Origin: Clostridiales bacterium
Lineage (GTDB): Bacteria > Bacillota > Clostridia > Christensenellales > Borkfalkiaceae
Direction: 5' to 3'
NCBI GenBank assembly: GCA_015055505.1
Contig: SVIB01000001.1
Span: 6,563 to 70,562, forward strand
Length of the DNA stretch: 64,000 nucleotides
Position numbers and translations under genes: made by a program
The notes under the pieces: model-generated
The model's input: only the letters and a program-made list of their open reading frames with translations
Databases searched by the model: none
What the model was told of the DNA's origin: nothing
Shown here: piece by piece, positions 1,694 to 62,959 of the stretch
Layout: every line of letters begins with the position of its first letter
How positions within the stretch are numbered: position 1 is the first letter of the stretch

Positions 1694-4093
1694 ATGTTAG
1701 CACCGCTTTCATGGCTTAAAGATTTCGTAGATATAGACGTAACCGTTGAAGAGTTAGAGAAAAAACTTTTCGACAGCGGTTTTGAAGTTGAACAAATTAT
1801 TCCTTACGGAGATAAACTCGACAAAGTAGTAACTTGTAAGATTTTCAAAATCGAACAGCACCCAAATGCGGAGAAACTCCGTATTTGTCAAGTAGACGCA
1901 GGTAAATACGGCAAATTGCAAATAATAACCAACGCCCAAAACGTAAAGGAAGGGGATATCGTTCCCGTTGCAGTTGACGGCGCAACCTTGGCGACAGGAG
2001 ACAGAATTTTTAACGGAAAACTCCGCGGAGAGCCTTCTTACGGAATGTTCTGCGGTGGGGAAGAAATAGGAATTACCGACGCGTTTTACGAGGGAGCGTC
2101 TTTTGACGGTGTTCTCGTATTTAACGACGACTTCCCTCTCGGCGAAGAGGTTAGAGATTTGCTCGGTTTAAAAGATTACGTTTTCGATATTTCGGTACTT
2201 GCAAACCGTCCCGACTGTCAATCGATAGTAGGTATCGCAAGAGAAATTGCGTGCGCTTTAAATAAACCGTTTAAAGAGCCGGACCTTTCTTATAACGAAG
2301 TAAAAGGCGACGACGAAAAAATTGACGTAACCGTTTTAGATAACGAACTTTGTCCGAGATATATTGCTCACCTTATAAAAGACGTAAAAATTGAAAAAGC
2401 CCCCAAGTGGATGTCAAAAAGACTTGCGCTTTGCGGACTTAATTCTATAAATAATATCGTAGATATTACCAACTACGTTCTTTTAGAGATGGGACAACCT
2501 ATGCACGCTTTCGACCTTAAAGACCTCGAAAATAACGAGATTATAGTAAGAAGAGCCGAAAACGGAGAAAAAATCGTAACGTTAGACGAAAAAGAAAATA
2601 TTTTAAATAGCGACAACCTCGTAATTTGCGACGGTCAAAAACCGGTTGCTCTTGCAGGTATTATGGGCGGACTTAACAGTGAAATTAAGGACGATACGAC
2701 CGCCGTTTTATTTGAATGCGCTAAATTTAAGAGAGATAACGTAAGAAAATCTGCGAGAACGCTCGGTAAGAGCAGTGATTCTTCAAAGAGATTTGAAAAA
2801 GGCGTTGACGAGTATACTACCGAGAGGGCGTCAAAAAGGGCTCTTAACCTCATTGATAAATTGGGAGCAGGCAGGGTAACTGCTGTTCGCGTTGACGTAT
2901 CGGCAGGTAAAACTCAAGAAAACAAAGAAGTTAGAACTACTTTCGGTAAAATAAACGGAGTTTTGGGTATTGAAGTACCAAAAGATACTATCGTTGATAT
3001 TTTAACCCGTCTTGGTTTTGGCGTTACGGTTGACGGGGAAAATCTCGTAACCGTTGCTCCCCCTTACCGTGAGGACGTCGAGGGATATCCCGACTTAGCC
3101 GAAGAAGTTATTAGAACTTACGGATACGAACATATTAAGCCCACTTTACTTAAAGAGGCTCAAGTAACTGCCGGCGGATACTCAAAAGAACAAAAAGACG
3201 AACTTAAAATGAAGAGAACTTTCGTAAACCTCGGATTTAACGAGGCTATGACTTTCTCTTTCTATTCCAAAAAGGATATTTCGGCGTTAAATCTCCGTGA
3301 GGGCGATTGCGAAGGTCAAACTATTTTAATTGGCAATCCGTTAAGCGATAACTATGAAGTTTTAAGAAGAACGCTTATTCCGTCACTTTTAAAGGTTGCG
3401 TCAAGCAATATTAAAAAGGGTAATACGGAAGGTAAAATCTTTGAAATTGCAAGGACGTTTATTCCTAAAACTCTTCCCGTTACGGATTTCCCCGAAGAGA
3501 GAAGATATTTAACCGCATTGACTTTTGGCGGTCAAGACGACTTCTTTACTTTAAAAGGAGTTTTGGAAGAAATTGCCGAGATATTTAGAGTTAAATTTAA
3601 CTTAAACGTAAGAGCCGATAAGACTTATCTTCACTCTGGCGTTTCCGCAAAAATCTTATTAGGCGACAAAGAGATTGGCGTTTACGGTCAAATTGCGTAC
3701 GAAACGGCGGCGGCTTTTGATATAGAATGTAAAGTTTACGCATTAGAACTTGATTACGACGCGTTAGCTGAAGAATTTAATACTCCGTTTAAATACGTAA
3801 ATCTTCCTAAATTTAGAAGCGTCGAAAGAGATTTGGCGCTTGTAGCGGATGAAAAAACTACTTGCGCGGAGATAGAGGACGTTATTCGTTCAGCATGTAA
3901 AAACAGTGTTGAATCGGTAAAACTTTTCGACGTTTACGTAGGCGAACAGGTTGGCGTTGGCAAAAAGAGTATGGCGTATACCGTAACCTTTAAAGCGGGA
4001 GAGGAAAAGCCTTTAGAAAGTGCCGACGTAGATGCTTTCGTTAAGAGAATTTTAGGAAGTTTAAAACACCGTCTTGGCGTAGAACTTCGCTAA
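1694..4093 (+). CDS. pheT: phenylalanine--tRNA ligase beta subunit
   Basis: The 799-aa protein starts with the MLAPLSWLKDF N-terminus, has B3/4, B5 and FDX-ACB domain-like sequence, and an AGGAGG RBS. Confidence 0.95.
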   Translation: MLAPLSWLKDFVDIDVTVEELEKKLFDSGFEVEQIIPYGDKLDKVVTCKIFKIEQHPNAEKLRICQVDAGKYGKLQIITNAQNVKEGDIVPVAVDGATLATGDRIFNGKLRGEPSYGMFCGGEEIGITDAFYEGASFDGVLVFNDDFPLGEEVRDLLGLKDYVFDISVLANRPDCQSIVGIAREIACALNKPFKEPDLSYNEVKGDDEKIDVTVLDNELCPRYIAHLIKDVKIEKAPKWMSKRLALCGLNSINNIVDITNYVLLEMGQPMHAFDLKDLENNEIIVRRAENGEKIVTLDEKENILNSDNLVICDGQKPVALAGIMGGLNSEIKDDTTAVLFECAKFKRDNVRKSARTLGKSSDSSKRFEKGVDEYTTERASKRALNLIDKLGAGRVTAVRVDVSAGKTQENKEVRTTFGKINGVLGIEVPKDTIVDILTRLGFGVTVDGENLVTVAPPYREDVEGYPDLAEEVIRTYGYEHIKPTLLKEAQVTAGGYSKEQKDELKMKRTFVNLGFNEAMTFSFYSKKDISALNLREGDCEGQTILIGNPLSDNYEVLRRTLIPSLLKVASSNIKKGNTEGKIFEIARTFIPKTLPVTDFPEERRYLTALTFGGQDDFFTLKGVLEEIAEIFRVKFNLNVRADKTYLHSGVSAKILLGDKEIGVYGQIAYETAAAFDIECKVYALELDYDALAEEFNTPFKYVNLPKFRSVERDLALVADEKTTCAEIEDVIRSACKNSVESVKLFDVYVGEQVGVGKKSMAYTVTFKAGEEKPLESADVDAFVKRILGSLKHRLGVELR

Positions 4094-4101
4094 AAGTCTG
4101 C

Positions 4102-4115
4102 CGATAAGTCGATTA
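4102..4115 (+). repeat. dispersed motif copy (1 mismatch)
   Basis: The sequence is cgataagtcgatta. It lies 8 nt after the pheT stop and upstream of the terminator hairpin. Confidence 0.85.
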
Positions 4116-4126
4116 ATAAGAAAAAT

Positions 4127-4156
4127 TGCCGTAAACGGATAATCCGTTTACGGCAA
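4127..4156. terminator. bidirectional terminator hairpin
   Basis: The stem TGCCGTAAACGG/CCGTTTACGGCA lies between the convergent genes pheT and the DUF896 gene. Confidence 0.7.
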
Positions 4157-4167
4157 ATAAAAAGTTA

Positions 4168-4356
4168 TTAATGCAATTTTTTCTTGTTACCGTTTTCGTC
4201 GATAACGTAGGTGCTGTCTAAAGAAGAACGGAGATTGCCAACGACGCTGTCGATATACTCTCTTCTTAGTTTTTGCTGTTCTATTTTCTCTTCTTCGGTA
4301 AGACCTACTTCACGCGATTTTTTAGCAAGGAAATTTATTCTTTCAATATTAAGCAT
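4168..4356 (-). CDS. DUF896 (UPF0291/YnzC-like) small protein
   Basis: The MLNIERINFLAKKSREVGLTEEEKIEQQKLRREYI pattern matches the family. I chose the internal ATG because it is preceded by a GGGAGAG RBS. Confidence 0.75.
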   Translation of the reverse strand: MLNIERINFLAKKSREVGLTEEEKIEQQKLRREYIDSVVGNLRSSLDSTYVIDENGNKKKLH

Positions 4357-6160: not shown

Positions 6161-6172
6161 AAAAAACGCAAA

Positions 6173-6186
6173 TAATCGACTTATAG
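6173..6186 (-). repeat. dispersed motif, exact copy
   Basis: The sequence is taatcgacttatag, 12 nt after the SDR stop. It is followed by a degenerate inverted half (tataagtg). Confidence 0.9.
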
Positions 6187-6222
6187 ACTGATATAAGTGA
6201 GATAAACGCAAGGAGAAGATAT

Positions 6223-8006: not shown

Positions 8007-8681
8007 TCACGCGTATTTACTCATAAGTTTGAAAAGTTCGGTTATTTTTTGGGAAAATTCATCACGGTCTTTATAGTTTACGTTTACGTGTGAAAGCCGT
8101 TTTACGTCGCACTCAAGTTCGGCTATGCTCTCTCGTTCTAAAAACGACAAATCCTTTTGTTTTAAACCGTCTATATAATAAAGTATTTGTGAATAGTTGA
8201 TTCCAAAATCGTCGCGGTAATTAGGGGTAAACATTTTATCGGTTTGCAAAAATTCCCGTTCTTTTTCACTCGTTTCTCTACTTAAAAAATAACCGTAATC
8301 ACTACCGCTTTTTTGTAAAAGCCGTTCTATAAGTTGATTATCGACGTATTTTTTCTTGCGAAAATCCTTTGAGAGGACAAGCGAAATTGAAAAAAGAAGA
8401 ATTGAGATTGCGCAAATAAAAAGGCTAACGCAAAGTGCTTTTAGGTTTGGTAAAGTATTATACGTAAAATCACAAAATACTTTATACGCGCACGAAAAAT
8501 ATGAAAAGAGAGAAAGGGTTAGCGGTAAGGTTTTATCGCTCTTTTTTATTTTGCGGACGAATATAGTCAAAATAAGCAAAGCGGTTGAAACTAAAAGTGA
8601 CGAACAACTTACTATTAACGGGTAAAATTGCCCGAGATTAATATTTGCAGTGAATTTCATAAAGAGTTCTAAAATTTTCAT
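8007..8681 (-). CDS. hypothetical membrane protein
   Basis: The ORF has 3-4 N-terminal TM segments and a soluble C-terminal part. I recognise no family, and the start codon is uncertain. Confidence 0.45.
   Translation of the reverse strand: MKILELFMKFTANINLGQFYPLIVSCSSLLVSTALLILTIFVRKIKKSDKTLPLTLSLFSYFSCAYKVFCDFTYNTLPNLKALCVSLFICAISILLFSISLVLSKDFRKKKYVDNQLIERLLQKSGSDYGYFLSRETSEKEREFLQTDKMFTPNYRDDFGINYSQILYYIDGLKQKDLSFLERESIAELECDVKRLSHVNVNYKDRDEFSQKITELFKLMSKYA
8327..8340 (+). repeat. dispersed motif copy (C9>T variant), inside a CDS
   Basis: The sequence is ctataagttgatta. On the coding (-) strand it encodes N-Q-L-I-E. Confidence 0.85.
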
Positions 8682-9022: not shown

Positions 9023-9036
9023 TGTTTCTAAGCCGA

Positions 9037-9050
9037 TAATCAACTTATAG
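9037..9050 (-). repeat. dispersed motif copy (C9>T variant)
   Basis: The sequence is taatcaacttatag, 14 nt after the spoIIID stop. Confidence 0.85.
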
Positions 9051-9092
9051 GCGGGTTTTTTAATAATTATTTGCTAAAATTTCAATTAGGTG

Positions 9093-10822: not shown

Positions 10823-11009
10823 AATTATCTCCTTTTGAAAAGCCTTAATTTTTATGCTTTTACGGTATTATTATGGTTATTAACGGTTTAAATTATACGC
10901 ACGGCAAACAAAAAGCAACGGTAATTGAGGGGAACCGTTGCTTTTTTATGAGGAGGGACAAAAGAACGAAGAAGTCCTTTTGTCGGTGTGATTGGGCATT
11001 TTAATTGGT

Positions 11010-11023
11010 CTATAAGTCGATTA
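11010..11023 (+). repeat. dispersed motif, exact copy
   Basis: The sequence is ctataagtcgatta, 9 nt downstream of the stop of degV (a - strand gene). Confidence 0.9.
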
Positions 11024-11032
11024 TTAGTGTTT

Positions 11033-11881
11033 TTACTTTGTTAGACCGTCGTTGATGTAAAGTATTCCTAAGGTGTTTTTACCGCAATGACTTGAAATAG
11101 TACAGCCTGCAGTAGTTACGTAAACTTTCTTAAATCCTAATTCGTAAACTATATCTTTTGCGGAGTTTATCATTTCGTCGGTTGCGTGGCTATGCGTAAT
11201 AAATATAACAGCCTTATCGGGGTTGTTGTATTTGCTAAGTACGGCGTTGCAGTATTCGGTAACACATTTGCCCATTTTTCCGCGGAATTTGTTGGTGCTA
11301 CCCATTTTGCCGTTCATAACTTCAATTTGAGGACGAATTTTAAGTAGATTTGCGCCAAGTAATGCGACAGAAGAGCATCTTCCGCCTCTATGAAGGTAGT
11401 CAAGTCTTTCAAGTACGAAACTTGCTTGAACGAAAGGTATCCTTTTTTCGACGAGTTCAACTATTTGTTTAGGGTCGTCAATAGTTTCAGTTAAAGTTTT
11501 TGCGTAAATTGCTAAAAGACCGATACCCGTTGATAACGTTCTACTGTCAATTACGAAAACGTTATTAAAATTTTTAGACGCGTTTACAGCGTTGTTGTAT
11601 GCGCTTGACATATCGGCGGAAATGTCAAAATGGATAATGGCGTCGTACTCTTTTAAAATTTCGGCAAAGAAGTCTTTAAATGCCTCTTCGTTTACGGCGT
11701 TGGTTTTGGGAAGTTGTTTGTTTTGGTCTGCCCACTCGAAAATTTCAAGAGTAGAAACTTCTCCGTCGTAGAAAAACCTATCGCCCATATTAACTCCAAA
11801 CGGAATTATTTTAAAGTCGTATTCTTCAATTATCTCTTTTGTTAAGTCGCACGCGCTATCTAACGTAACTGCAATTTTCAT
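11033..11881 (-). CDS. DegV family fatty-acid-binding protein
   Basis: It has the MKIAVTLDSACDL N-terminus and DegV-like sequence throughout. Confidence 0.85.
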   Translation of the reverse strand: MKIAVTLDSACDLTKEIIEEYDFKIIPFGVNMGDRFFYDGEVSTLEIFEWADQNKQLPKTNAVNEEAFKDFFAEILKEYDAIIHFDISADMSSAYNNAVNASKNFNNVFVIDSRTLSTGIGLLAIYAKTLTETIDDPKQIVELVEKRIPFVQASFVLERLDYLHRGGRCSSVALLGANLLKIRPQIEVMNGKMGSTNKFRGKMGKCVTEYCNAVLSKYNNPDKAVIFITHSHATDEMINSAKDIVYELGFKKVYVTTAGCTISSHCGKNTLGILYINDGLTK

Positions 11882-12014: not shown

Positions 12015-12035
12015 GATTTTTAAAGTTAAACCGCT

Positions 12036-12049
12036 CTATAAGTCGATTT
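12036..12049 (+). repeat. dispersed motif copy (1 mismatch)
   Basis: The sequence is ctataagtcgattt. It lies between the stop at 12066 and the terminator hairpin. Confidence 0.85.
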
Positions 12050-12065
12050 TTACAACTTTATTAAA

Positions 12066-16143: not shown

Positions 16144-16283
16144 AAAGTCGAATTTTAAATAACCTAAAAAAAGCCAAAATTTTTACGGAAAAAGTCGAAA
16201 TTTATACTTGCCAAAAATTGCCAAAATTTTTACGGAAAAAGTCGAATTATAAGAAAACTGAAAATCGACAAAATTAGCCTATA
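16143..16283 (+). repeat. 47-bp tandem repeat, about 3 units
   Basis: AGTCGAA cores sit at 16146, 16193 and 16240, exactly 47 nt apart. A 27-nt block, GCCAAAATTTTTACGGAAAAAGTCGAA, is identical at 16173-16199 and 16220-16246. Confidence 0.85.
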
Positions 16284-16292
16284 AGTTGATTA
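16279..16292 (+). repeat. dispersed motif copy (C9>T variant)
   Basis: The sequence is ctataagttgatta, directly after the tandem repeat. Confidence 0.85.
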
Positions 16293-16330
16293 TTGGCTTA
16301 ATATGTGTTGCAAAACCTATCTAAAAAAAG

Positions 16331-16377: not shown

Positions 16378-17649
16378 TTATTCTACGGTTATTTTCTTCG
16401 CTCCGTCAGCGGTTATTTTGGCGTTATAGAAAGCGGTAAGACCTTTGACCGTTTGGTCGTAATCGCAAATAGCCATCGTTTCAACTGCCGAGTGCATTGC
16501 AAGTTGTGCAAGACCGATATCAACGCTACGTATGGATACTTGTTTAGAACTTATTGCTCCTAAAGTGCCACCGCAAGGGAGATCCGACCTCATAAAGAAA
16601 TCTTGATATTTTACGTTCGCTGAGTCAAATATTTTTTTGATTACAGATGCGGAAAAAGCGTCGGTTGTGTAATTTTGGTTTGCGTGGTGTTTTATAACGA
16701 TACCTTCACCCATTTTCACCTTATTTGTCGGGTCTGAAAATTCTGGATGGTTTGGGTGAGTTGCGTGCGCGTTGTCCGCTGAAACCATAAACGAGTTTGC
16801 AAGCGCTTTATCAAAATCGTCGTATTTGCCAAGGCTTTTTGCAATTCTTGAAAGAATATCAATTAAAAATTTTGAGCCTGCGCCTTGCTTTGTGGAACTT
16901 CCTACTTCTTCGTTGTCGGCAATGTAGCATACAGAAATCGTTTGTGGATTACATTTCTCAAGAGCCTCTAAAGAAGATATTGCGCTTGCGAGATTGTCGA
17001 TTCTCGGTGCGGATAAAAGTCCGTCGGTATATCCGTTTGTAAAGGGCGATTGATTGCAAACGACGTATAAATCCCCGTCTATAAGTTGTTTATCGCCACA
17101 AAACGCCTTAATTTCTTCGTCAAGACCGCCATTTGAAAACACGTCGGCGATAGGGCTTAAATCGGTTTGCGCGTTAAATTTTATTCCGTCGTTTACCGTC
17201 CTGTTGAAGTGAATTGCAACCGAAGGGATGACAAACGTTTTTTGAGAGGTAAAAGTAAGGCTTTCAAGTGTGTTTCCGTTTGAAACTATAAGCCTACCGG
17301 CAACCGTTAAGGGGCGGTCAAACCAACTGTAAAAAATACCACCGCCGTATCTTTCGACGTTGAATTTATAATAATTTTCGACCTTCATTTCAGGGTTGTA
17401 CTTAAGTTTAAAACAAGGTGAATCGGCGTGTGACGCTACTATATTAAAAGAAAAAGTTTTGCCGAGTTTAAAAGCAATAAGCGCAGAGCCGTCTCTTGAA
17501 ACGAAATATTTACCCCCTTCTTTTAAACGGAAATCCTCATTTTCTTTAAGTTCGGTAAATCCGCCTTTTAAAAGGAATTTAACCGCGTTATCATGCGCGT
17601 GATAAGCCGTTTTGCTCTTATCAAGATAGTTTATAAGTAAGTTGCTCAT
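16378..17649 (-). CDS. M18 family aminopeptidase
   Basis: It shows M18 features (SHADSPCFKLK, DNEEVGS, the metal-ligand pattern) and is 423 aa long. Confidence 0.8.
   Translation of the reverse strand: MSNLLINYLDKSKTAYHAHDNAVKFLLKGGFTELKENEDFRLKEGGKYFVSRDGSALIAFKLGKTFSFNIVASHADSPCFKLKYNPEMKVENYYKFNVERYGGGIFYSWFDRPLTVAGRLIVSNGNTLESLTFTSQKTFVIPSVAIHFNRTVNDGIKFNAQTDLSPIADVFSNGGLDEEIKAFCGDKQLIDGDLYVVCNQSPFTNGYTDGLLSAPRIDNLASAISSLEALEKCNPQTISVCYIADNEEVGSSTKQGAGSKFLIDILSRIAKSLGKYDDFDKALANSFMVSADNAHATHPNHPEFSDPTNKVKMGEGIVIKHHANQNYTTDAFSASVIKKIFDSANVKYQDFFMRSDLPCGGTLGAISSKQVSIRSVDIGLAQLAMHSAVETMAICDYDQTVKGLTAFYNAKITADGAKKITVE
17079..17092 (+). repeat. dispersed motif-like copy (2 mismatches), inside a CDS
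   Basis: The sequence is ctataagttgttta. On the coding strand it encodes K-Q-L-I-D. Confidence 0.5.
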
Positions 17650-17736: not shown

Positions 17737-18786
17737 ATGAGAGGCAGGGTAGAAGTCGATTTAAAAATATTAAAACGAAATGCTGAAAGTATTAAAACTT
17801 TATTGGGCGGTAAAACTAAAATATTTTGGGTAGTCAAGGCTGATGCGTACGGTCACGGAATTGCCGGCGTTTGTAAGCAATTGGCTTTTGCAGACGGGTT
17901 TTGCGTAGCGACTTTAGAAGAGGGATTAATTGTTAGACAGAGTACGCATTCACCGGTATTAATACTCGGCAAAACCGATTTTAACGAAAAGAAAGAGTGT
18001 GTAAATAGTGATATTTCGCTCTCCGTTTGGGACGAAAAAGACCTAACCGATTTGATATGTATAACGGATAATATGAACAAGTGTATAGGTGTGCATATTG
18101 CCGTTAATACCGGTATGAACCGAATAGGCGTAAAAGAAGAAAAGTCCCTCTATAAGTTGATTAATGCGATAAAATCTTCGTCAAAAATCCAAATAAAGGG
18201 CGTATTTTCGCATCTTTTCGACGGGGAAAACGACTGTGCTTGTCAAAAACAGCGAGAACGGTTTTTGGCGTTTTGCAGTCAGTTTAACGAGGGGGTGATA
18301 AAACATTTATCCGCAACGCAAAAGTCAACCGACGGAAATTTTGCGTTTGACGGAGTGAGAGTTGGTTTGGGGCTTTACGGTTACGGAATTTCAAGGGTGC
18401 AACCTTGTATGAGCGTTTTCGGTGAAGTCGTTTGCGTAAATAGATTGGTTAAGGGCGAAAGCGTTGGCTACGGCGGTAAATTCGTAGCAAACGAAGAGTG
18501 TTTAGTCGCAACTTTGTCTTTAGGTTATGCGGACGGAATATCGCGAAAAAGAAGTGGCGGAGAGGTGCTTATACGGGGAAAAAGACGGAAAATCGTTGGC
18601 TCTATATGTATGGATTTTTGCTTTGCGTTGGTGGACGGTTTAGTTAAGGTTGGCGACGAGGTGGTTTTTATGGGAAAACAAGGCGGGCAAACGATAACCG
18701 CTGAGGATATTGCTGAGTGGGAACAAACTATTCCGTACGAGGTTTTAACGAAAAATAAAAGACTGCCGATAATATATAAACTCTAA
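17737..18786 (+). CDS. alr: alanine racemase
   Basis: It has the PLP-lysine motif VVKADAYGHG and a C-terminal beta domain. Confidence 0.9.
   Translation: MRGRVEVDLKILKRNAESIKTLLGGKTKIFWVVKADAYGHGIAGVCKQLAFADGFCVATLEEGLIVRQSTHSPVLILGKTDFNEKKECVNSDISLSVWDEKDLTDLICITDNMNKCIGVHIAVNTGMNRIGVKEEKSLYKLINAIKSSSKIQIKGVFSHLFDGENDCACQKQRERFLAFCSQFNEGVIKHLSATQKSTDGNFAFDGVRVGLGLYGYGISRVQPCMSVFGEVVCVNRLVKGESVGYGGKFVANEECLVATLSLGYADGISRKRSGGEVLIRGKRRKIVGSICMDFCFALVDGLVKVGDEVVFMGKQGGQTITAEDIAEWEQTIPYEVLTKNKRLPIIYKL
18150..18163 (+). repeat. dispersed motif copy (C9>T variant), inside a CDS
   Basis: The sequence is ctataagttgatta, read as Y-K-L-I-N in alr, in the same frame as the copy at 434. Confidence 0.85.
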
Positions 18787-18878: not shown

Positions 18879-20678
18879 ATGGCAGAATTTATGGGAAATT
18901 TAAGAAGAACGACTATGTGTGGCGTTCTTAGGGCTAATAACGTAGGCGAAGAAGTCGTCGTAATGGGTTGGACGCAGAGAAGAAGAAATCTCGGCAGTTT
19001 AATATTCGTAGACCTTCGTGACAGAACGGGACTCGTTCAAATAGTTTTTGACGATACTACAGATAAGTCCGTTTTTGAAAAGGCTGAAACTATCCGTTCG
19101 GAATACGTGCTTGCAGTAAAGGGTAAAGTTAGAGAACGTAGCAGTAAAACCGATAAGATTGCAACCGGCGATATTGAAATTCTTGCCGACGAAATTAAGA
19201 TTTTATCCGAGGCTGATACTACTCCGTTTGAAATTTTGGACGACACTAACGTAAATGAAACCTTACGCCTTAAATATAGGTACTTAGACCTTAGAAGACC
19301 GTCGCTCCAAAGAAATCTCATAATTCGTAACGAAATTAGTAAAGCGTCGAGAAAATTCTTTGATGAAAACGGGTTTATCGAGGTTGAAACTCCTATGCTT
19401 GGACGTTCTACTCCCGAAGGGGCAAGAGATTATCTCGTTCCGTCAAGAGTACACGAAGGCTGTTTTTACGCTCTTCCTCAATCTCCCCAACTCTATAAAC
19501 AGTTGCTTATGATTTCGGGTTTTGATAGGTATTATCAAATTACGAAATGTTTCCGTGACGAAGATTTGAGAGCAAACCGTCAACCCGAATTTACTCAAAT
19601 AGACGTTGAAATGAGTTTCGTTGAAGAGATAGAAGACGTTATGTATCCTATCGAAGGACTTATCAAAAACATTTTCAAGTCTACTATAGGTCTTGACCTT
19701 GGCGAAGGGCATTTTAGAGTAATGCCATGGAGAGAGGCTATGGAAAATTACGGTTCGGATAAGCCCGATACCCGTTTCGATATCAAAATAGTCAACTGTT
19801 CTGACTTGTTTGTAAATTCAACGTTTAAAGTATTTACTGATGCTTTATCTATCAATATTGGACCTATTAGAGGTAGCGTAAGGGCGGTAAACGCAAAAGG
19901 TCTTGCAAGCGGATTTTCAAGAAAAGACCTTGACGCAACCGTAGAATACGCAAAAACCCTTGGCGCAAAAGGTCTTTGCTGGATGACTTGGCAAAAGGGC
20001 GGAGAAATTAAATCTTCGTTTGCTAAATTCTTAACCGAGGAAGATATTGCGAATATTAAGGAAAGAATGAATTTTGAAGAGGGTGACGTATTGTTCTTTG
20101 CTTCCGATAAAGATTACGTCGTATTCAACACTCTTGGCGGAATAAGACTTTACGTTGCTGAAAAATTCAATCTCGTTGACAAAGATAAATACGATATACT
20201 TTGGATAACCGAGTTCCCAATGTTCGAGTGGTCGGAAGAGGAAAACCGTTACATGGCGGTACACCACCCCTTTACCGCGCCTATGACTGAAGATTTAGAC
20301 CTTATCGACAGTGCGCCCGACAAGGCAAGGGCAAAGGCGTACGACCTCGTTATAAACGGTCAAGAGTCGGGTGGCGGATCTATACGTATTCACTCGAGAG
20401 AAATACAGAAAAAGATGTTTAACGTGCTTGGCTTTAGCGACGAAGATATTGAAAAGAAATTCGGTTTCTTCGTTGGCGCATTCAACTACGGAACTCCACC
20501 TCACGGCGGTCTTGCGTTTGGTCTTGATAGACTTACTATGCTTATTTGTAAAGACGATTCAATCCGTGACGTAATTGCGTTCCCCAAAGTACAAACGGCG
20601 TCCTGTCTTATGAGTGACGCTCCGTCTTCCGTTGAAGACAAGCAACTTGACGAACTTGCTATTTCTATTAAGAAATAA
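18879..20678 (+). CDS. aspS: aspartate--tRNA ligase
   Basis: The 599-aa protein has an OB-fold N-terminus and class II motifs (FRDEDLRANRQPEFTQID, GLDRLTM). Confidence 0.95.
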   Translation: MAEFMGNLRRTTMCGVLRANNVGEEVVVMGWTQRRRNLGSLIFVDLRDRTGLVQIVFDDTTDKSVFEKAETIRSEYVLAVKGKVRERSSKTDKIATGDIEILADEIKILSEADTTPFEILDDTNVNETLRLKYRYLDLRRPSLQRNLIIRNEISKASRKFFDENGFIEVETPMLGRSTPEGARDYLVPSRVHEGCFYALPQSPQLYKQLLMISGFDRYYQITKCFRDEDLRANRQPEFTQIDVEMSFVEEIEDVMYPIEGLIKNIFKSTIGLDLGEGHFRVMPWREAMENYGSDKPDTRFDIKIVNCSDLFVNSTFKVFTDALSINIGPIRGSVRAVNAKGLASGFSRKDLDATVEYAKTLGAKGLCWMTWQKGGEIKSSFAKFLTEEDIANIKERMNFEEGDVLFFASDKDYVVFNTLGGIRLYVAEKFNLVDKDKYDILWITEFPMFEWSEEENRYMAVHHPFTAPMTEDLDLIDSAPDKARAKAYDLVINGQESGGGSIRIHSREIQKKMFNVLGFSDEDIEKKFGFFVGAFNYGTPPHGGLAFGLDRLTMLICKDDSIRDVIAFPKVQTASCLMSDAPSSVEDKQLDELAISIKK

Positions 20679-20680
20679 GC

Positions 20681-20694
20681 CTATAAGTCGATTA
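20681..20694 (+). repeat. dispersed motif, exact copy
   Basis: The sequence is ctataagtcgatta. It lies 2 nt after the aspS stop and 14 nt before the next start codon. Confidence 0.9.
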
Positions 20695-20707
20695 ATGAGG
20701 TGTTTTT

Positions 20708-23217: not shown

Positions 23218-23517
23218 ATGGCAGGTCAAAAAATTAGAATTAAGTTAGCGGCTTACGATCACAAAATGGTAGATCAAGCAACTGAAAGAATCGTAGAAAC
23301 GATGAAGAAAGCAGGCGCTAAAATAAGCGGTCCTATTCCTCTTCCTACTGAAAAGGAAATCGTAACGATTCTTCGTTCGCCACACAAGTACAAGGATAGC
23401 AGAGAGCAGTTCGAGATAAGAACTCATAAAAGACTTATCGACATTTATTCAACGAACGCTAAAATCCTTGACAGCATACATCTTCCCGCTGGCGTAGACG
23501 TAAAAATCAAACTTTAA
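23218..23517 (+). CDS. rpsJ: 30S ribosomal protein S10
   Basis: The sequence is conserved ([18 protein letters not shown]) and it is the first gene of the S10 operon. Confidence 0.97.
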
Positions 23518-23562
23518 TTTAGGAAACAATTTTTTCAATATATACGGAGGTGAACTTTATCT

Positions 23563-24192
23563 ATGAATAAAGCAATCATTGGAAAGAAATTGGGCATGAC
23601 TCAGATCTTTTCCGCAGACGGAAAAGTAATCCCAGTCACAGTCGTTGAAGCAGGTCCTTGTCCGGTCGTTCAAATTAAGACTAAGGAAAGAGACGGCTAC
23701 GAAGCAATCAAAGTAGGCTTTGGAAAAGTCAACGAAAAGGTACTTAACAAACCCGAAGCAGGTCAATTCAAGAAAGCAGGCGTTGAACCTCAAAGAGTTC
23801 TTAAAGAGTTTAAGCTTGACGATTTAAGCGCTTATACCGTAGGTCAATCAATCACCGTTGACGTTTTCGCTGAAGGAGAAAAGGTTGACGTAGTAGGTTA
23901 CACTAAAGGTCACGGTTTCTCGGGCGTAATTAAAAGATGGAATCAACATAAACTTATGGCTACGCACGGTGTAGGTCCTGTACACAGAGAGGTTGGTTCT
24001 ATGGGCGCAAACAGTTCGCCGTCGAGAGTTTTCAAGAACAAACACATGCCGGGACAGTATGGTAACGAAAGAGTTACTATTCAAAACCTTGAAGTTGTCA
24101 AGGTGGATACCGCAAGAAACGTACTCCTTATCAAGGGCGCAATCCCCGGACCTAAGGGCGGAATCGTAACGGTAACCAACACTGTTAAATAA
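23563..24192 (+). CDS. rplC: 50S ribosomal protein L3
   Basis: Both sequence and operon order support the call. Confidence 0.97.
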
Positions 24193-24206
24193 GGAGCGTG
24201 AAGAAT

Positions 24207-24830
24207 ATGTCAAACGTAAAAGTTTATAATATGAAAGGACAAGTAACCGGTGATCTTGATCTCGGCGCATTGTTTGAAATTGAATATAACGAACCGCTCA
24301 TCCATCAAGCAGTAGTTACCAGACTTGCAAATATGCGTCAGGGAACGAAAGGTTCGCTTACCAGATCTGAAGTAAGAGGCGGAGGCAAAAAGCCTTGGAG
24401 ACAAAAGGGTACCGGTAATGCAAGACAAGGTTCGACCAGAGCACCACAATGGATTAAAGGTGGCGTAGTATTCGCTCCAAAGTCCAGAGATTTTAGCAAA
24501 AAGATGAACGTAACCGCAAGAAGAACGGCTCTTTTCTCCGCTCTTTCTAAAAAGGTTACCGACAATGAATTTTACGTAATCGACGACGTAACGGTAGCAG
24601 AAGGCAAGACAAAAGAAATGATAGCGTTTAGAGATGCTTTCAAGTTTGAAAAAACCGTTCTTATCGTTCTTTGCGAGGCAAACGAACTCGTAGTAAGAGC
24701 AGCAAGAAACCTTGAAAAAATGCAAACTATCAACGTTGACCTTCTCAATACTTACGACGTAGTTAAAAATTCTGTAGTAGTAATCGCTAAAGGCGCTGTT
24801 GAAAAATTACAGGAGGTTTACGGAGAATAA
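24207..24830 (+). CDS. rplD: 50S ribosomal protein L4
   Basis: Sequence supports the call. I prefer the ATG at 24207, 10 nt after AAGGAG, over the GTG at 24198. Confidence 0.93.
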   Translation: MSNVKVYNMKGQVTGDLDLGALFEIEYNEPLIHQAVVTRLANMRQGTKGSLTRSEVRGGGKKPWRQKGTGNARQGSTRAPQWIKGGVVFAPKSRDFSKKMNVTARRTALFSALSKKVTDNEFYVIDDVTVAEGKTKEMIAFRDAFKFEKTVLIVLCEANELVVRAARNLEKMQTINVDLLNTYDVVKNSVVVIAKGAVEKLQEVYGE

Positions 24831-25117
24831 TGGAAAGAGAAGTTATTTTAAGACCTCTTCTTACAGAGAAGAGCTACGCAACTATTCAAGATAAGAAATA
24901 TACTTTCGTAGTTGCAAAGGACGCAAACAAGACCGAAATTAAACTTGAGGTTGAAAAAAGATTTGACGTTCAAGTAGAGAAAGTAAACACTGCAAACTGC
25001 CACGGAAAACTTAAGAGAATGGGCAGAACTCAGGGTTATACGTCTGACTATAAAAAGGCAATCGTAACCCTTAAGAAAGACAGCAAGGGCATTGCGTTCT
25101 TTGAATCGCTTCAGTAA
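24830..25117 (+). CDS. rplW: 50S ribosomal protein L23
   Basis: Sequence and operon order support the call. Confidence 0.95.
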   Translation: MEREVILRPLLTEKSYATIQDKKYTFVVAKDANKTEIKLEVEKRFDVQVEKVNTANCHGKLKRMGRTQGYTSDYKKAIVTLKKDSKGIAFFESLQ

Positions 25118-25132
25118 TCGGAGGAAATAATA

Positions 25133-25960: not shown

Positions 25961-25973
25961 GGAGAGGTAGAAT

Positions 25974-26249: not shown

Positions 26250-26264
26250 TGGAGGTAGGACGAA

Positions 26265-27325: not shown

Positions 27326-27326
27326 T

Positions 27327-38714: not shown

Positions 38715-38858
38715 GATGCGGTTTTAGAAGTTTAGATAACGCGTTTTATATATTATTATATAATGATTAAGTAATTTCCCTCCTTTTTTTTGAGTTGACG
38801 TAAAAAAATTTTTTCACTTTAATACTTAAAATTTGTCAAAAATTGCAAAAAGTGGCGA

Positions 38859-38872
38859 TAATCGACTTATAG
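38859..38872 (-). repeat. dispersed motif, exact copy
   Basis: The sequence is taatcgacttatag, in the long AT-rich spacer upstream of the 1251-aa gene. Confidence 0.9.
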
Positions 38873-39155
38873 GCGGACTTTTGGTGTAAAACAGGGTATA
38901 AATTACCTCTAAGCGCGGTAAAATTTAGTAAAATTCCGTAAAAGCAAACTTATATTTTGCAAGAAAAACGCGTGATAATTACTAAATTTTTCCAACTAAA
39001 AAATGATTGTAAAAACAAGTAAGTAAAAAGTTAAAAAAGTTTAAAAAAATTTCATATATTTTATTGAAATTATTTGCTCTTTGTGATATTATATAAATAT
39101 ACTATATTTATATGTTAAAATATAGTAAGGTAAGTAGCGAGAAATCGCATAGGAG

Positions 39156-49994: not shown

Positions 49995-50015
49995 ACTGTG
50001 AAGTGAGGAAAAATA

Positions 50016-50738
50016 ATGATAAACAACTTATTGGCGACCTTATTTGAAAATATAGGCGAGATATTTTCAGAAGTAAAATACCTTGAACTTATTTTAGAAG
50101 GGTTTGAAATTACTCTTAAAATTTCGATTGGCGCGGCTATTATCGGTCTTATTTTAGGAACTTTAGTGGCAATAATAAAAATAGCAACCGAAACGGGCAA
50201 AGGTAACAAATGGCTAAAAATTCCAAATGCAGTGTGTGAAATATACGTAACGGTCGTAAGGGGCACTCCTATGGCTTTGCAACTTTTCTTGATGTCTTTC
50301 GTTGTGTTTGCAATAAGAGGATTTCCGCAACTGGTAGTTGCAATAATTGCATTCGGCATAAACAGCGGTGCTTACGTTTCGGAAAACATAAGAGCGGGCA
50401 TTATGTCGGTTGATAAAGGACAAACGGAGGCAGGAAGAGCGTTAGGTCTTTCAAGTAGCCGTACTTTGGTAGGAATAGTTATTCCGCAAGGTGTTAAAAA
50501 CGTAATACCTGCTATCGGTAACGAACTTATAGCCTTAGTAAAGGAAACGTCTATAGTTAGCATGATAGGTATGATAGATTTAACGCAAGCGTCTAAAATT
50601 ATCGGCTCGGGGCAAAATCTTGCCTCATATTTAGCGCCAATGCTTGTAGTTGCTATGTGCTATCTTGCCATAGTGTATTTTTTGACTTTCATTATAAAAG
50701 TAATTGAAAGGAGGTTGAGAAAGAGTGATAAGCGTTAA
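50016..50738 (+). CDS. amino-acid ABC transporter permease (HisMQ/GlnP family)
   Basis: It has an EAA-like loop ([14 protein letters not shown]) and 5 TM segments. Confidence 0.88.
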
Positions 50739-61337: not shown

Positions 61338-62039
61338 ATGTTTGATTTATTGATAAAAGTGCTAAAAAAGGTTTTCGTTCAAGAAGAAAACAGCGTACAT
61401 TACCTTTCGGGAACTGAGGCTCTTCCACGTCCTTTTACCCAAGACGAAGAACAAGAACTCTTGTCAAGACTTGAGGGCGACGGCGAAAGCGTCCGTCAAA
61501 GCCTTATAGAGCATAATCTACGCCTCGTAGTGTATATTGCAAGAAAGTTTGATAATACGGGCGTTGAACTCGACGACCTCGTTTCGGTCGGCACGATAGG
61601 TCTTATTAAAGCGGTAAAAACCTTTAATACGGGAAAAAATATAAAACTTGCAACCTACGCCTCTCGCTGTATAGAAAACGAGATTTTAATGTATCTAAGA
61701 AGAATAGTCAAGATAAAGGGAGAGGTGTCTTTAGACGAGCCGTTAAACGTTGATTACGAAGGGAACGAGTTACTGCTTTCGGATATATTGGGAACTGAAA
61801 GCGACGTGGTTTACAAGGATATTGAACTTGGCGTAGAAAAGGAGATGCTACGTCAGGCAATAGAAAAACTTTCGCCGAGAGAAAAGCAAATAATGAGTTT
61901 AAGATTCGGTTTAAACGGTGAGGATGAATTAACCCAAAAAGAAGTTGCCGACCTGTTGGGTATATCGCAAAGTTACATATCAAGGCTTGAAAAAAAGATT
62001 GTTTTAAGATTAAGAAAAGAATTTATGAAACTTGCTTAA
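61338..62039 (+). CDS. sigE: RNA polymerase sporulation sigma factor SigE (pro-sigma-E)
   Basis: It has a pro-sequence followed by [21 protein letters not shown], plus regions 2 and 4. The ATG follows a GGTGGGTGG RBS, and a GTG at 61329 is an alternative start. Confidence 0.92.
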
Positions 62040-62047
62040 AACATAAA

Positions 62048-62061
62048 TAATCGACTTATAG
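62048..62061 (-). repeat. dispersed motif, exact copy
   Basis: The sequence is taatcgacttatag, 8 nt after the sigE stop. Confidence 0.9.
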
Positions 62062-62142
62062 ATAGGCTTTTTATATAAAACACATAAAACAACGCAAATT
62101 CTACATACTTTTTTCGGGTACATACTTTCAAAGGAGGTAATT

Positions 62143-62913
62143 ATGCGGAAAGTAGAAATTTGCGGTATAGACACTTCAAGGCTTACAAAACTTACACACA
62201 AAGAAAGCGAAGAGTTGCTCTTTAAAATTAAGGAAGGCGACAAAAGTGCGAGAGACACCTTTACGGTTGCAAATATAAGACTTGTACTGTCGATAATAAA
62301 AAGATTTCCTCACTCTAAGGTTTCTGCCGAGGATATGTTTCAAGCGGGAATGATAGGGCTTATTAAATCGGTTAAAAATTTTGATTTATCAATAGGAGTT
62401 AGGTTTTCAACTTACGCCGTACCAATGATATTAGGGGAAGTAAAGAGGGTAATACGCGCACAAAACAGTTTAAGAGTTTCAAGAAGTATTCGAGATACGG
62501 CGTATAAAGTGTTACAGGCAAGAAGTGAGATAGAAGCGGAAAAGGACGATACCGCAACTATGGGAGAAATTGCCCAAAGACTCCAAATTGCTGAAAAGGA
62601 AGTGGTTTACGCGTTAGACGCAATATCCGATCCCGTTTCGCTGTACGACCCAGTATATAACAAAAACGGCGACGCCTTACTTTTAATGGATCAAATAGGC
62701 GACGAAAAAAACACGGATGAGAAATGGACGGAGAACGTTGCTCTTGAAAGTGCGCTGAAAAGACTGGACGAAAGGGAAAAGAAGATAATTTATATGAGGT
62801 ATTACGAGGGGAAAACCCAAACTGAAATATCTAAAGAAATAGGGCTTTCACAAGCCCAAGTTTCTCGTCTTGAAAAGACGGCGCTTTTGTCGGTCAAGAA
62901 TAAAATGGCATAA
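62143..62913 (+). CDS. sigG: RNA polymerase sporulation sigma factor SigG
   Basis: It has KVEICGIDTSRL and FSTYAVPMILGEVKR, and sits in the canonical spoIIGA-sigE-sigG order. Confidence 0.9.
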   Translation: MRKVEICGIDTSRLTKLTHKESEELLFKIKEGDKSARDTFTVANIRLVLSIIKRFPHSKVSAEDMFQAGMIGLIKSVKNFDLSIGVRFSTYAVPMILGEVKRVIRAQNSLRVSRSIRDTAYKVLQARSEIEAEKDDTATMGEIAQRLQIAEKEVVYALDAISDPVSLYDPVYNKNGDALLLMDQIGDEKNTDEKWTENVALESALKRLDEREKKIIYMRYYEGKTQTEISKEIGLSQAQVSRLEKTALLSVKNKMA

Positions 62914-62915
62914 AA

Positions 62916-62959
62916 GACGGGCTATAAGTCGGTTAATCGACTTATAGCCCGTCTTTTTT
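62916..62959 (+). terminator. rho-independent terminator built from an inverted pair of the dispersed motif
   Basis: A perfect 16-bp stem GACGGGCTATAAGTCG/CGACTTATAGCCCGTC has loop GTTAAT and is followed by T6. The motif copies are at 62922-62935 (+, 1 mismatch) and 62934-62947 (-, exact). Confidence 0.85.

What the first reader, a model, noticed from the sequence alone, without database searches (positions are those of the whole stretch)
4091..62935. The motif sits in a fixed stop-codon, motif, terminator arrangement, and the similarity can include the stop codon itself
Nine of the twelve intergenic loci start 2-16 nt after a stop codon. The distances are pheT 8, SDR 12, spoIIID 14, degV 9, carbamoyltransferase-like 16, aspS 2, ppx 8, sigE 8 and sigG 8. 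Where a terminator hairpin is visible, the motif lies between the stop and the hairpin. This holds for pheT (4102 before 4127), ppx (60350 before 60386) and the carbamoyltransferase-like gene (12036 before 12014 on the - strand). Similarity extends back over the stop codon in three cases: pheT TAAAAGTCTGCCGATAAGTCGATTAAT, ppx TAAAAGTTAGCCTATAAGTCGATTATT and sigG TAAAAGACGGGCTATAAGTCGGTTAAT. Orientation relative to the gene is mixed. It is forward after pheT, aspS and ppx, and reverse after SDR, spoIIID, degV and sigE. This suggests either targeted insertion at gene 3' ends or selection for a site in the untranslated gap before terminators.
Basis: seen in the sequence. Interest (0 to 1): 0.6.

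Follow-up and report, generated by a model that had tools for sequence, protein, structure and literature searches.

The report
Dispersed chromosome motif avoiding the terminus
The stop-codon/motif/terminator pattern is real, but it is a side effect of a ~35-base DNA word with phased A/T flanks, present about 414 times inside and between genes in a clade of uncultured gut Clostridia and nearly absent from the ~300 kb around the replication terminus, which points to an undescribed protein-docking signal for chromosome organisation.

Summary
All nine stop-to-motif distances in the window are correct. Genome-wide, intergenic copies sit close to gene 3' ends: 68% lie within -16..+20 nt of a stop, against 24-49% under random placement. 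The arrangement is not fixed, though. The full motif is about 35 nt (AAAAGTnnGnCTATAAGTCGATTAwy...wTTT) and has 414 copies in 1.6 Mb. 59% of copies lie inside genes, in stop-free frames and in both orientations, and arose without indels relative to orthologues. Only 32 of 152 copies at gene 3' ends show the order stop, motif, hairpin. The fixed distances arise because the motif's A-rich flanks and its own TAA/TAG triplets supply the stop codon. Copies carry A/T tracts phased at ~11.3 nt out to about -45/+55, roughly 20 times stronger than controls. They show no strand bias, and neighbouring copies are rarely 50-300 nt apart. The motif is almost absent from a ~336-kb block around the replication terminus (3 copies, about 109 expected). 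The same depletion is seen in sister species and in a second genus. Most genus genomes lack a competence-pilus ATPase, and no RAYT, phage or plasmid link was found. Best reading: a DNA-level docking site for an unknown DNA-bending protein that marks non-terminus DNA, similar in logic to Noc/SlmA sites. This is unproven. The scan has noted similar lineage-specific words in other gut Clostridia.

The parts
423..458 (+). motif copy inside a CDS (ORF 3-524), read as E-K-V-V-Y-K-S-I-N
   Evidence: PWM 35.6 bits. Orthologous copies in G002 and G004, no indel.
4091..4126 (+). motif copy after pheT. The pheT stop TAA is motif position -14..-12. A hairpin follows at about 4127-4155.
   Evidence: Relatives have no motif here and different downstream gene order.
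6162..6197 (-). motif copy (reverse relative to the gene) 12 nt after the SDR gene stop
   Evidence: About 45 nt including the motif are absent in G004 and G007.
8316..8351 (+). motif copy inside ORF 8007-8681 (- strand), read as N-Q-L-I-E
   Evidence: 36.4 bits. The motif is kept in G007, G020 and G002 although the protein is only ~27% identical.
9026..9061 (-). motif copy 14 nt after the spoIIID stop
10999..11034 (+). motif copy 9 nt downstream of the degV (- strand) stop
12025..12060 (+). motif copy 16 nt downstream of the stop of the - strand gene 12066-12992
16268..16303 (+). motif copy 139 nt after the orphan Spo0A_C gene, following three AAAAAGTCGAA repeats
17068..17103 (+). motif copy inside CDS 16378-17649 (- strand), read as D-K-Q-L-I-D-G. 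A G000-specific gain by substitution.
   Evidence: Eleven orthologues align without a gap and lack the motif.
18139..18174 (+). motif copy inside CDS 17737-18786, read as E-K-S-L-Y-K-L-I-N
   Evidence: Conserved in G013 and G016, with PWM hits at matching locus positions in G020, G004, G002 and G007. Absent without a 12-aa indel in G003, G015, G005 and G009.
20670..20705 (+). motif copy 2 nt after the aspS stop
   Evidence: A 17-nt core indel relative to G015 and G005.
38848..38883 (-). best-scoring copy in the genome (45.2 bits), 195 nt after the end of the ribosomal-protein gene cluster and after its terminator
50009..50044 (-). weaker copy overlapping the start of CDS 50016-50738
   Evidence: 25.7 bits
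57720..57755 (-). motif copy in a divergent intergenic region
   Evidence: 34.9 bits
60339..60374 (+). motif copy after ppx. The stop TAA is motif position -14..-12. A terminator hairpin follows at about 60386.
62037..62072 (-). motif copy (reverse) after sigE. The stop TAA lies in the motif's 3' A/T tract.
62911..62958 (.). head-to-head pair of motif copies after sigG, forming a perfect hairpin followed by a T-run (bidirectional terminator). The sigG stop lies in the first copy.
   Evidence: One of 11 such pairs in the genome.
23218..38664 (+). ribosomal-protein gene cluster with no motif copy (a local gap in conserved, tightly packed genes)

Best explanation
The motif is a double-stranded-DNA docking site for a still unidentified sequence-specific chromosomal protein. 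The protein would read the ~26-35-nt asymmetric core (AAAAGTnnGnCTATAAGTCGATTA) and bend or wrap about 100 bp of DNA around it. The array of about 400 sites marks the whole chromosome except a terminus-centred domain of roughly +/-160 kb. The most likely role is therefore positional or cell-cycle information, with the same logic as Noc-NBS and SlmA-SBS nucleoid-occlusion sites: bulk chromosome is marked and terminus DNA is left free. Sites are gained by ordinary mutation wherever they are tolerated and are then retained. Gains are substitutions inside genes, in the two or three frames that avoid the motif's stop triplets, and small indels or substitutions between genes. Promoter-bearing 5' regions and conserved genes do not tolerate the motif. 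Its flanks are A-tracts that readily include TAA. Intergenic copies therefore pile up on or just after stop codons, ahead of any terminator, and head-to-head pairs double as terminators. Shown here: the anatomy, the distribution, the mode of origin and the terminus exclusion. Inferred: that a protein binds, and what the binding does.
For: 1. A DNA-level signal, not an RNA-level one. Copies are forward or reverse relative to the upstream gene in equal numbers, 77 vs 75. In CDS, 103 lie on the gene strand and 143 on the opposite strand. There is no replication-strand bias, 173 vs 180. There is no fixed-register pairing covariation and no Rfam family.
2. The same 35-nt profile, including AAAAGT and the +18..21 A/T tract, appears in CDS copies of both orientations and in intergenic copies.
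3. A/T tracts phased at 11.25-11.5 nt extend to about -45/+55, also inside genes. Power is 0.053-0.057, against 0.002-0.008 for control anchors.
4. CDS copies arose without indels. Some sites are kept across species with only ~70-75% flank identity, and one is kept inside a protein that is only 27% identical.
5. Short spacings are depleted: 4 spacings of 50-300 nt against 33 expected.
6. Terminus exclusion. In G000 a 336-kb block holds 3 copies against about 109 expected. The block comprises contigs C3, C4, C18, C32, C39, C43, C46, C47, C53, C1, C8, C42 and C19, with the same GC and tetranucleotide content as the rest. The Tex gene on C3 is 92% identical to its nearest genus relatives, so the block is not contamination. 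C4 carries the + to - GC-skew switch and convergent genes. Synteny joins C23-C3-C42-C46-C1-C47-C4-C19..C32-C18. G013:C3 (170.6 kb, with a skew switch) has 0 hits, against 1.86 per 10 kb on that species' dnaA contig. G012, G016, G001 and G042 show the same depletion. In another genus, G059 falls from 4-5 per 10 kb to 0 towards the infB/terminus end.
7. NBS and SBS are known to be absent from terminus regions (PMC4331003).
Against: No reader protein was identified. The single full-length ParB homologue and HU show no clade-specific pattern. Known nucleoid-occlusion sites are short palindromes at about 25-70 copies per genome, whereas this motif is long, asymmetric and roughly 20 times denser. 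Terminus exclusion could in principle come from a process that simply does not act there. Copy number varies 2-158 (exact 13-mer) among genus members, which is unexpected for an essential system. All genomes are fragmented MAGs, so the ori-to-ter order is inferred from GC skew and synteny.
Confidence: 0.5

Rival explanations
1. DNA uptake or transfer 'self-tag' of the USS/DUS kind. The motif accumulates by molecular drive because fragments carrying it are preferentially imported and recombined.
For: It has hundreds of copies in both strands, in CDS in stop-free frames, and intergenic near terminators. Eleven inverted pairs form terminators. Copies originate by substitution. Short spacings are depleted. 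It has phased A/T flanks, as the Haemophilus USS does. It is restricted to a clade. ComEC and DprA are present. The DUES literature shows the same frame and terminator patterns (10.1101/2025.10.24.684340).
Against: No competence-pilus ATPase (T2SSE/ComGA) was found in G000 or in 27 of 31 genus genomes, and its presence is unrelated to motif count. No ComEA was found beyond the Tex HHH domain. A conserved motif-free domain of about 300 kb at the terminus has no counterpart in the DUS/USS literature I read and is not predicted by uptake drive.
Confidence: 0.12
2. Strong type II topoisomerase (gyrase or topo IV) site, analogous to E. coli BIME-2/REP and Mu SGS. The enzyme wraps the phased flanks and removes the positive supercoils that build up at gene 3' ends.
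For: The element spans about 100 bp, with a specific centre and periodic arms, as does the 130-bp gyrase motif with periodic arms (PMC6379681). It favours 3' ends and convergent IGRs and is depleted in divergent IGRs. Gyrase sites show an ori-ter gradient and are under-represented in Ter (PMC6379681), and motif density here also falls towards the terminus.
Against: The invariant core has no GxxC cleavage tetranucleotide (PMC12630141). Genes followed by a motif have the same codon-adaptation index as other genes, median 0.628 vs 0.628. CDS copies show no 3' bias. Gyrase is needed in the terminus too, so near-total exclusion is unexpected. The information content of about 28 bits is far above known gyrase preferences.
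Confidence: 0.15
3. One reading: a miniature mobile element that inserts at gene 3' ends, or a site selected in the untranslated gap before terminators (a transcription-termination or RNA 3'-end function).
For: There is a 3'-end bias. Two intergenic copies coincide with clean small indels relative to relatives. The order stop, motif, hairpin is twice as common as stop, hairpin, motif, 32 vs 16.
Against: 59% of copies are in CDS and were created without indels. Both orientations are equally common. There are no terminal inverted repeats or target duplications and no covarying stem. The only Y1 transposase is an ordinary IS200 whose ends are unrelated to the motif. No phage or plasmid carries the motif in multiple copies. 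83 of 152 3'-end copies have no detectable terminator. An RNA or termination role does not explain terminus exclusion.
Confidence: 0.07
4. A mutational or repair by-product (for example a biased repair or gene-conversion tract) with no binding function.
For: Copy number varies widely between species. Related core variants coexist in another genus.
Against: A 28-bit asymmetric motif with about 100 bp of phased flanks is far beyond known repair-bias products such as 8-bp palindromes. The motif is conserved at orthologous sites within diverged sequence. Exclusion is domain-specific.
Confidence: 0.05

Closest known systems
Noc-binding sites (NBS) of Bacillus subtilis and SlmA-binding sites (SBS) of E. 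coli
   Same: Specific DNA sites scattered over the chromosome, inside genes and between them, in either orientation, and missing from the terminus region. Their distribution tells the cell where bulk DNA lies (PMC4331003).
   Different: NBS and SBS are short palindromes of about 14-16 bp, with about 25-70 copies, read by dimeric ParB- or TetR-type proteins. This motif is asymmetric, about 35 nt plus phased flanks, has about 414 copies in 1.6 Mb, and has no identified reader. No effect on cell division has been shown.
DNA uptake sequences (Haemophilus USS, Neisseria DUS)
   Same: Clade-specific word with hundreds of copies. It sits in coding frames that avoid stops, arose by substitution, forms inverted pairs that act as terminators, and has A/T-rich phased flanks (10.1101/2025.10.24.684340; PMC2817400).
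   Different: Most genus genomes have no competence pilus ATPase and no ComEA was found. The motif is nearly absent from a conserved ~300-kb terminus domain. The lineage is a Gram-positive spore-former.
E. coli REP/BIME-2 elements and strong gyrase sites
   Same: Repeated sites at gene 3' ends and between convergent genes. The protein-wrapped element is about 100-130 bp with periodic arms. Frequency declines from ori to ter (PMC6379681).
   Different: REPs are extragenic palindromes spread by a RAYT transposase. Here 59% of copies are intragenic, there is no general hairpin, no RAYT, no GxxC cleavage core and no link to predicted expression.
Lineage-specific dispersed words with phased A/T flanks noted by this scan in other gut Clostridia (e1-3702354, e1-4362018, e1-3969633)
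   Same: The same kind of object: a 17-30-nt word inside genes and at gene ends, with phased A/T flanks, specific to a clade.
   Different: The word is different. Those notes, as far as shown, do not report terminus exclusion. They are unchecked AI notes and are not evidence.

Membership tests
USS/DUS uptake sequences | Highly over-represented clade-specific word on both strands, in CDS and IGR | tested here: met
   414 copies against about 4 in the control, 246 in CDS and 168 in IGR. Present in genera g1, g25, g30 and g35 only.
USS/DUS uptake sequences | Competence machinery with type IV (pseudo)pilus and DNA receptor | tested here: not met
   T2SSE/ComGA scores above cut-off in only 4 of 31 genus genomes and not in G000. 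ComEA was not found. ComEC and DprA are present. These are MAGs of 64-98% completeness.
USS/DUS uptake sequences | Preferential uptake of motif-bearing DNA | not testable with these tools
   Needs a cultured strain.
USS/DUS uptake sequences | Spread over the whole chromosome | tested here: not met
   3 copies against about 109 expected in the 336-kb terminus block. 0 copies in 170.6 kb of G013:C3.
REP/BIME with RAYT | Extragenic imperfect palindromes | tested here: not met
   59% are intragenic. There is no fixed-register pairing covariation between the flanks. Only 11 head-to-head pairs form hairpins.
REP/BIME with RAYT | A RAYT (Y1 transposase) gene flanked by the repeats | tested here: not met
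   There is a single IS200-type TnpA at C52:27487-27954, with its own unrelated end hairpins.
MITE / in-frame palindromic element (RPE-like) insertion | Copies are insertions relative to orthologues, with terminal repeats or target duplications | tested here: not met
   CDS copies align to orthologues without indels. Two IGR copies coincide with 17-nt and ~45-nt indels but have no TIR or TSD.
Nucleoid-occlusion sites (NBS/SBS) | Sites scattered over the chromosome but absent from the terminus region | tested here: met
Nucleoid-occlusion sites (NBS/SBS) | Short palindromic site read by a dimeric ParB-like or TetR-like protein | tested here: not met
   The motif is asymmetric and about 35 nt long. 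There is one full ParB homologue and no second paralogue.
Nucleoid-occlusion sites (NBS/SBS) | The bound protein blocks division over the site | not testable with these tools
   Needs genetics or cell biology.
Strong gyrase sites | Specific centre plus periodic arms of about 130 bp | tested here: inconclusive
   Phased A/T tracts with an 11.3-nt period reach about -45/+55, roughly 100 bp in total.
Strong gyrase sites | GxxC at the cleavage centre (Gram-positive gyrase; PMC12630141) | tested here: not met
   The conserved core CTATAAGTCGATTA contains no GxxC on either strand.
Strong gyrase sites | Enrichment downstream of highly transcribed units | tested here: inconclusive
   There is a 3'-end bias but no difference in codon adaptation, 0.628 vs 0.628, p=0.59. 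No transcript data were available.
Intrinsic terminator | GC-rich hairpin followed by a U-tract | tested here: not met
   This holds only for head-to-head pairs (21 copies). Single copies have no conserved stem.

The most novel reading that the evidence does not exclude
A clade of spore-forming gut Clostridia writes a positional code into its chromosome. About 400 asymmetric nucleoprotein sites, each wrapping about 100 bp, are laid down even inside essential genes by codon choice and are barred from the terminus domain. An unknown protein reads them to time division or sporulation septation against chromosome segregation. This would be a third, independently evolved nucleoid-occlusion-type system, and possibly one instance of a general, unrecognised class, given the other lineage-specific words this scan found in gut Clostridia.
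Probability: 0.3. Interest if true: 0.88.

Novelty: new variant of a known kind. Interest (0 to 1): 0.72.

Why it matters
How Clostridia coordinate division and asymmetric sporulation septation with chromosome position is largely unknown. Only one ParB-family gene was found in this genome, so there is no separate Noc paralogue. A dense, sequence-defined array of sites excluded from the terminus gives a concrete handle. The motif can serve as bait to identify the reader protein. It can also be used to predict ori/ter layout and to check binning in fragmented MAGs of this clade. It shows that chromosome-scale constraints shape codon and amino-acid choice in hundreds of genes. For annotation, it explains a recurrent pattern at gene ends (stop codons embedded in a repeat, terminators built from repeat pairs) that could otherwise be mistaken for a mobile element or an RNA motif.

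Tried and rejected
1. RNA structure: there is no fixed-register covariation between the flanks and no Rfam hit at the motif.
2. REP/RAYT: the only Y1 transposase is a typical IS200 with unrelated ends.
3. Mobile insertion in genes: rejected by gap-free orthologue alignments.
4. Contamination as the cause of motif-free contigs: rejected. They have the same GC and tetranucleotide content. The C3 Tex gene is 92% identical to its nearest genus relatives, the same pattern as aspS. Orthologous regions in five species are also motif-free.
5. A different 'dialect' in low-copy species: G003 has the same word at about 6-fold lower density and no replacement word.
6. Chi/KOPS-like polarity: no strand bias.
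7. Phage or plasmid origin: only chance-level single hits in IMG/VR and none in PLSDB.
10. parS/NBS consensus: only matches with 2 mismatches.
11. A terminus-specific counterpart (matS-like) word: the only terminus-block-specific repeat is a CRISPR array.
13. Link to expression: no CAI difference.
14. Literature: the core string is not in any relevant paper, and no paper matched 'DNA uptake sequence' + 'Firmicutes' + 'overrepresented'.
16. One alignment with guessed coordinates was uninformative.

Full report
**1. The observation**

The 15-mer around the core has 20 near-matches in the window, against 5.0 +/- 2.2 in shuffles. I compared the ORF list with the motif coordinates. The TAAAAGT overlap with the stop at pheT, ppx and sigG is visible in the sequence.

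**2. The motif is longer and far more widespread than the finding says**

- In the whole 1.60-Mb assembly (58 contigs, 38% GC) the 11-mer TAAGTCGATTA occurs 101 times exactly.
- Aligning the copies gives a ~35-nt profile, AAAAGTnnGnCTATAAGTCGATTAwy-n5-wTTT, of about 28 bits.
- A PWM scan finds 414 copies at >=16 bits. A reversed-genome control gives about 4.
- With my own crude gene calls (1372 genes, 89% coding), 246 copies lie inside CDS and 168 between genes.
- Inside genes the frames are those that avoid the motif's own stop triplets. On the gene strand the main frame is xxT-AAG-TCG-ATT (Y-K-S-I-I/N, 79 copies). On the opposite strand it is AAT-CGA-CTT-ATA (N-R/Q-L-I, 113 copies).
- The same profile, including the 5' AAAAGT and the A/T tract at +18..21, is seen in CDS copies of either orientation and in intergenic copies.

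**3. Stop codons and terminators, genome-wide**

- Of the 161 intergenic copies that could be assigned to an IGR, 102 lie in tandem, 50 in convergent and 9 in divergent IGRs. By length, 30 convergent and 32 divergent were expected.
- 68% of copies with a 3' flank lie -16..+20 nt from a stop. Random placement in any IGR gives 24%, and random placement in the same IGR gives 49%.
- In tandem IGRs, 82 copies are nearer the stop and 19 nearer the next start.
- Given the IGR, the excess is in copies that overlap the stop codon (41% vs 23.5%). Copies 0-20 nt downstream are not enriched (28% vs 25%).
- The overlaps fall at fixed offsets: TAA at motif positions -14..-12 (14 copies; this is the '8 nt' class of pheT, ppx and sigG), TAA at -12..-10 (10), a stop at -8..-6 (9), the core TAA (4), and in reverse copies the TAA of TAATCGAC (15).
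- The fixed distances therefore come from the motif's own A-rich flank and stop triplets serving as the gene's stop.
- With a simple hairpin-plus-T-run finder, the 152 copies beside a 3' end divide as follows: 32 between stop and hairpin, 21 in the hairpin (head-to-head pairs such as the one after sigG; 11 pairs in all), 16 after the terminator, and 83 with no detectable terminator. The arrangement is frequent but not fixed.

**4. How copies arise**

- For CDS copies, orthologues from up to eleven species of the genus align without gaps across the site. One example is window 17082: F-C-G-D-K-Q-L-I-D-G-D-L-Y against F-A-G-D-K-K-I-I-D-G-D-L-F. These copies were made by substitution, not insertion.
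- The copy at 18153 is shared by species with only ~70-75% flank identity.
- The copy at 8330 is kept inside a protein that is only ~27% identical between close species.
- The copy at 17082 is unique to this genome. There is therefore both retention and ongoing gain.
- Two intergenic copies coincide with small indels relative to species that lack them: 17 nt (CCTATAAGTCGATTAAT) after aspS and about 45 nt after the SDR gene. Neither has terminal repeats or target duplications.

**5. A DNA-level feature**

- Orientation relative to the upstream gene is 77 forward and 75 reverse.
- Relative to the GC-skew-defined leading strand it is 173 to 180.
- There is no fixed-register covariation between the flanks.
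- Rfam finds only two tRNAs in the window.
- The A/T content of the flanks oscillates with a period of 11.25-11.5 nt out to about -45 and +55, inside genes as well.
- The spectral power (0.053-0.057) is about 20 times that around control anchors such as AAAAG, TATAAG or GATTA (0.002-0.008, maximum 0.013).
- The unit is thus a ~100-bp stretch of phased, bendable DNA centred on an asymmetric core.
- Spacing between copies is not Poisson: there are 4 spacings of 50-300 nt against 33 expected.

**6. Who has it**

- The record titles of relatives are MAGs of uncultured gut Clostridia/'Christensenellaceae'.
- The exact 13-mer is present in all 24 genus genomes sampled (1-158 copies) and in 0-2 copies in 16 other families of the order.
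- Within the family it is abundant in four genera (g1, g25, g30, g35) and absent or near-absent in the others sampled.
- A low-copy species (G003, 47% GC) has the same word at about 6-fold lower density and no replacement word.
- In genus g30, cores such as TATAAGCCCGTTA coexist with the canonical one while the left half is kept.

**7. Terminus exclusion, the main new result**

- Eleven G000 contigs totalling 288 kb have no copy at all: C3 (63 kb), C4 (60 kb), C18 (41 kb), C32, C39, C43, C46, C47, C53, C1 and C8. C42 and C19 have 1 and 2 copies. The rest of the genome has 3.25 per 10 kb. That is 3 copies against about 109 expected in 336 kb.
- These contigs have the same GC and tetranucleotide make-up and carry core genes such as recA, ftsK, infB, nusA, gyrA, sigF and the spoIIIA operon.
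- Tex on C3 is 92% identical to its nearest genus relatives, like aspS on the window's contig. The contigs are not contamination.
- C4 shows the GC-skew switch from + to - at about 32 kb, with convergent gene orientation and a Xer-like recombinase gene at the switch. This is the signature of the replication terminus.
- Synteny with larger contigs of sister species orders the pieces as C23-C3-C42-C46-C1-C47-C4(ter)-C19...C32-C18. The motif-poor block is therefore one contiguous domain of roughly +/-160 kb around the terminus, about 20% of the genome.
- The same holds elsewhere. G013:C3 (170.6 kb, skew switch at 60 kb) has 0 hits, while that species' dnaA contig has 1.86 per 10 kb.
- G012:C15 has 0 hits in the 70 kb around its switch.
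- The 40 kb around Tex is empty in G012, G013, G016, G001 and G042.
- On G016:C4, density rises from 0 to 1-2 per 10 kb away from the terminus side.
- In a different genus (G059), density falls from 4-5 per 10 kb to 0 over the last ~60 kb towards the infB end.
- Contigs carrying dnaN/parB (C9) and dnaA (C17) are motif-rich.

**8. What it is most likely to be**

- An orientation-free, asymmetric, strongly conserved core sits in ~100 bp of phased DNA. It is written into genes by substitution, rarely lies within 50-300 nt of another copy, and is barred from the terminus domain in several species. This is best explained as a docking site for a DNA-bending or wrapping chromosomal protein whose site array distinguishes bulk chromosome from terminus DNA.
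- The closest functional analogues are Noc-NBS and SlmA-SBS. Their absence from the terminus region lets division start as segregation ends (PMC4331003).
- It is not a member of those families. The site is not a short palindrome, it is about 20 times denser, and no reader was found. There is one ParB homologue, and neither HU nor a Spo0A_C paralogue shows a clade-specific pattern.

**9. Rivals**

- Uptake-signal model. It fits the frames, terminator pairs and flanks (10.1101/2025.10.24.684340). It conflicts with the lack of a competence-pilus ATPase in G000 and in 27 of 31 genus genomes, the lack of ComEA, and the terminus gap.
- Strong-gyrase-site model. It fits the periodic arms, the 3'-end bias and the ori-ter decline (PMC6379681). 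However, the core lacks the GxxC cleavage motif (PMC12630141), predicted expression is not higher for motif-flanked genes, and CDS copies show no 3' bias.
- Mobile-element or terminator model. It is contradicted by sections 4 and 5, by an ordinary IS200 being the only Y1 transposase, and by the absence of phage or plasmid copies.

**10. Why stops and terminators**

- Promoter-bearing and 5' regions are avoided (divergent IGRs hold 9 copies against 32 expected).
- Conserved, tightly packed operons are avoided. The ribosomal-protein cluster at 23.2-38.7 kb has none.
- Genes with internal copies have lower codon adaptation (0.607 vs 0.637, p = 1e-8).
- The zone from the last codons to the terminator is the most permissive DNA in a compact genome.
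- The motif's A-tract flanks (TAAAAG..., ...TTTTA) absorb a TAA at no cost.
- Two copies head to head give a stem plus a T-run in both directions.

**11. Limits**

All genomes are fragmented MAGs. Gene calls are my own heuristic. The ori/ter layout rests on GC skew and synteny. Earlier notes of this scan describe similar lineage-specific words with phased flanks in other gut Clostridia. I used them only as a lead for the flank test.

Noticed in passing
G000:C39:1-640 (outside the window): CRISPR array at a contig end: 10 exact copies of a repeat containing GAGAGTCTTGTTATTCTGTAAGTAGTTAA, with a 66-nt period. It is the only repeat specific to the motif-free block.
   Followed up: partly
window 15760-16292: Stand-alone Spo0A C-terminal domain gene (127 aa, PF08769, E=3.7e-28), followed by three AAAAAGTCGAA repeats 47 nt apart and then a motif copy. 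In more distant species of the genus the paralogue is full length (240-270 aa). A second Spo0A_C gene is common across the order.
   Followed up: partly
window 4094-4410: In eleven relatives a small gene whose product resembles the DUF896 protein follows pheT on the same strand, almost without a spacer. In this genome the DUF896 gene (4168-4410) is on the opposite strand, and a motif plus a hairpin lies between the two genes. This suggests a local inversion next to a motif copy.
   Followed up: no
window 8007-8681 (- strand): ORF with no Pfam match whose product is only ~27% identical between species that are ~90% identical in aspS. The embedded motif is nevertheless conserved at the same position.
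   Followed up: partly
G000:C55:34530-35816: A ParA-like ATPase gene followed by a 159-aa ParB_N-like gene, next to a DeoR-type regulator gene and genes that look like bacterial-microcompartment shell genes. A 37.8-bit motif copy lies ~90 nt downstream.
   Followed up: no
L237-L247 (G059:C1:60001-274503): In another genus the left half of the motif (AAAAGTnnGnCTATAAG) is kept, while several copies carry alternative cores (TATAAGCCCGTTA, TATAACTTCATTA) beside the canonical one. These may be dialects, or a hint that the left half is the main recognition element.
   Followed up: no
genus-wide: A type II/IV secretion ATPase (T2SSE, ~570 aa) is present in only 4 of 31 genus genomes (G001, G014, G021, G042), so it is an accessory gene in this genus.
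   Followed up: no
G000:C52:27487-27954: A single IS200-type Y1 transposase gene with its own flanking hairpins, inserted downstream of clpX. A motif copy lies ~200 nt upstream but is unrelated to the IS ends.
   Followed up: yes
G013:C6 and G016:C1: dnaA does not sit at a GC-skew switch in these species. In G000 the -/+ switch is on the dnaN/parB contig C9, while dnaA is on C17.
   Followed up: no
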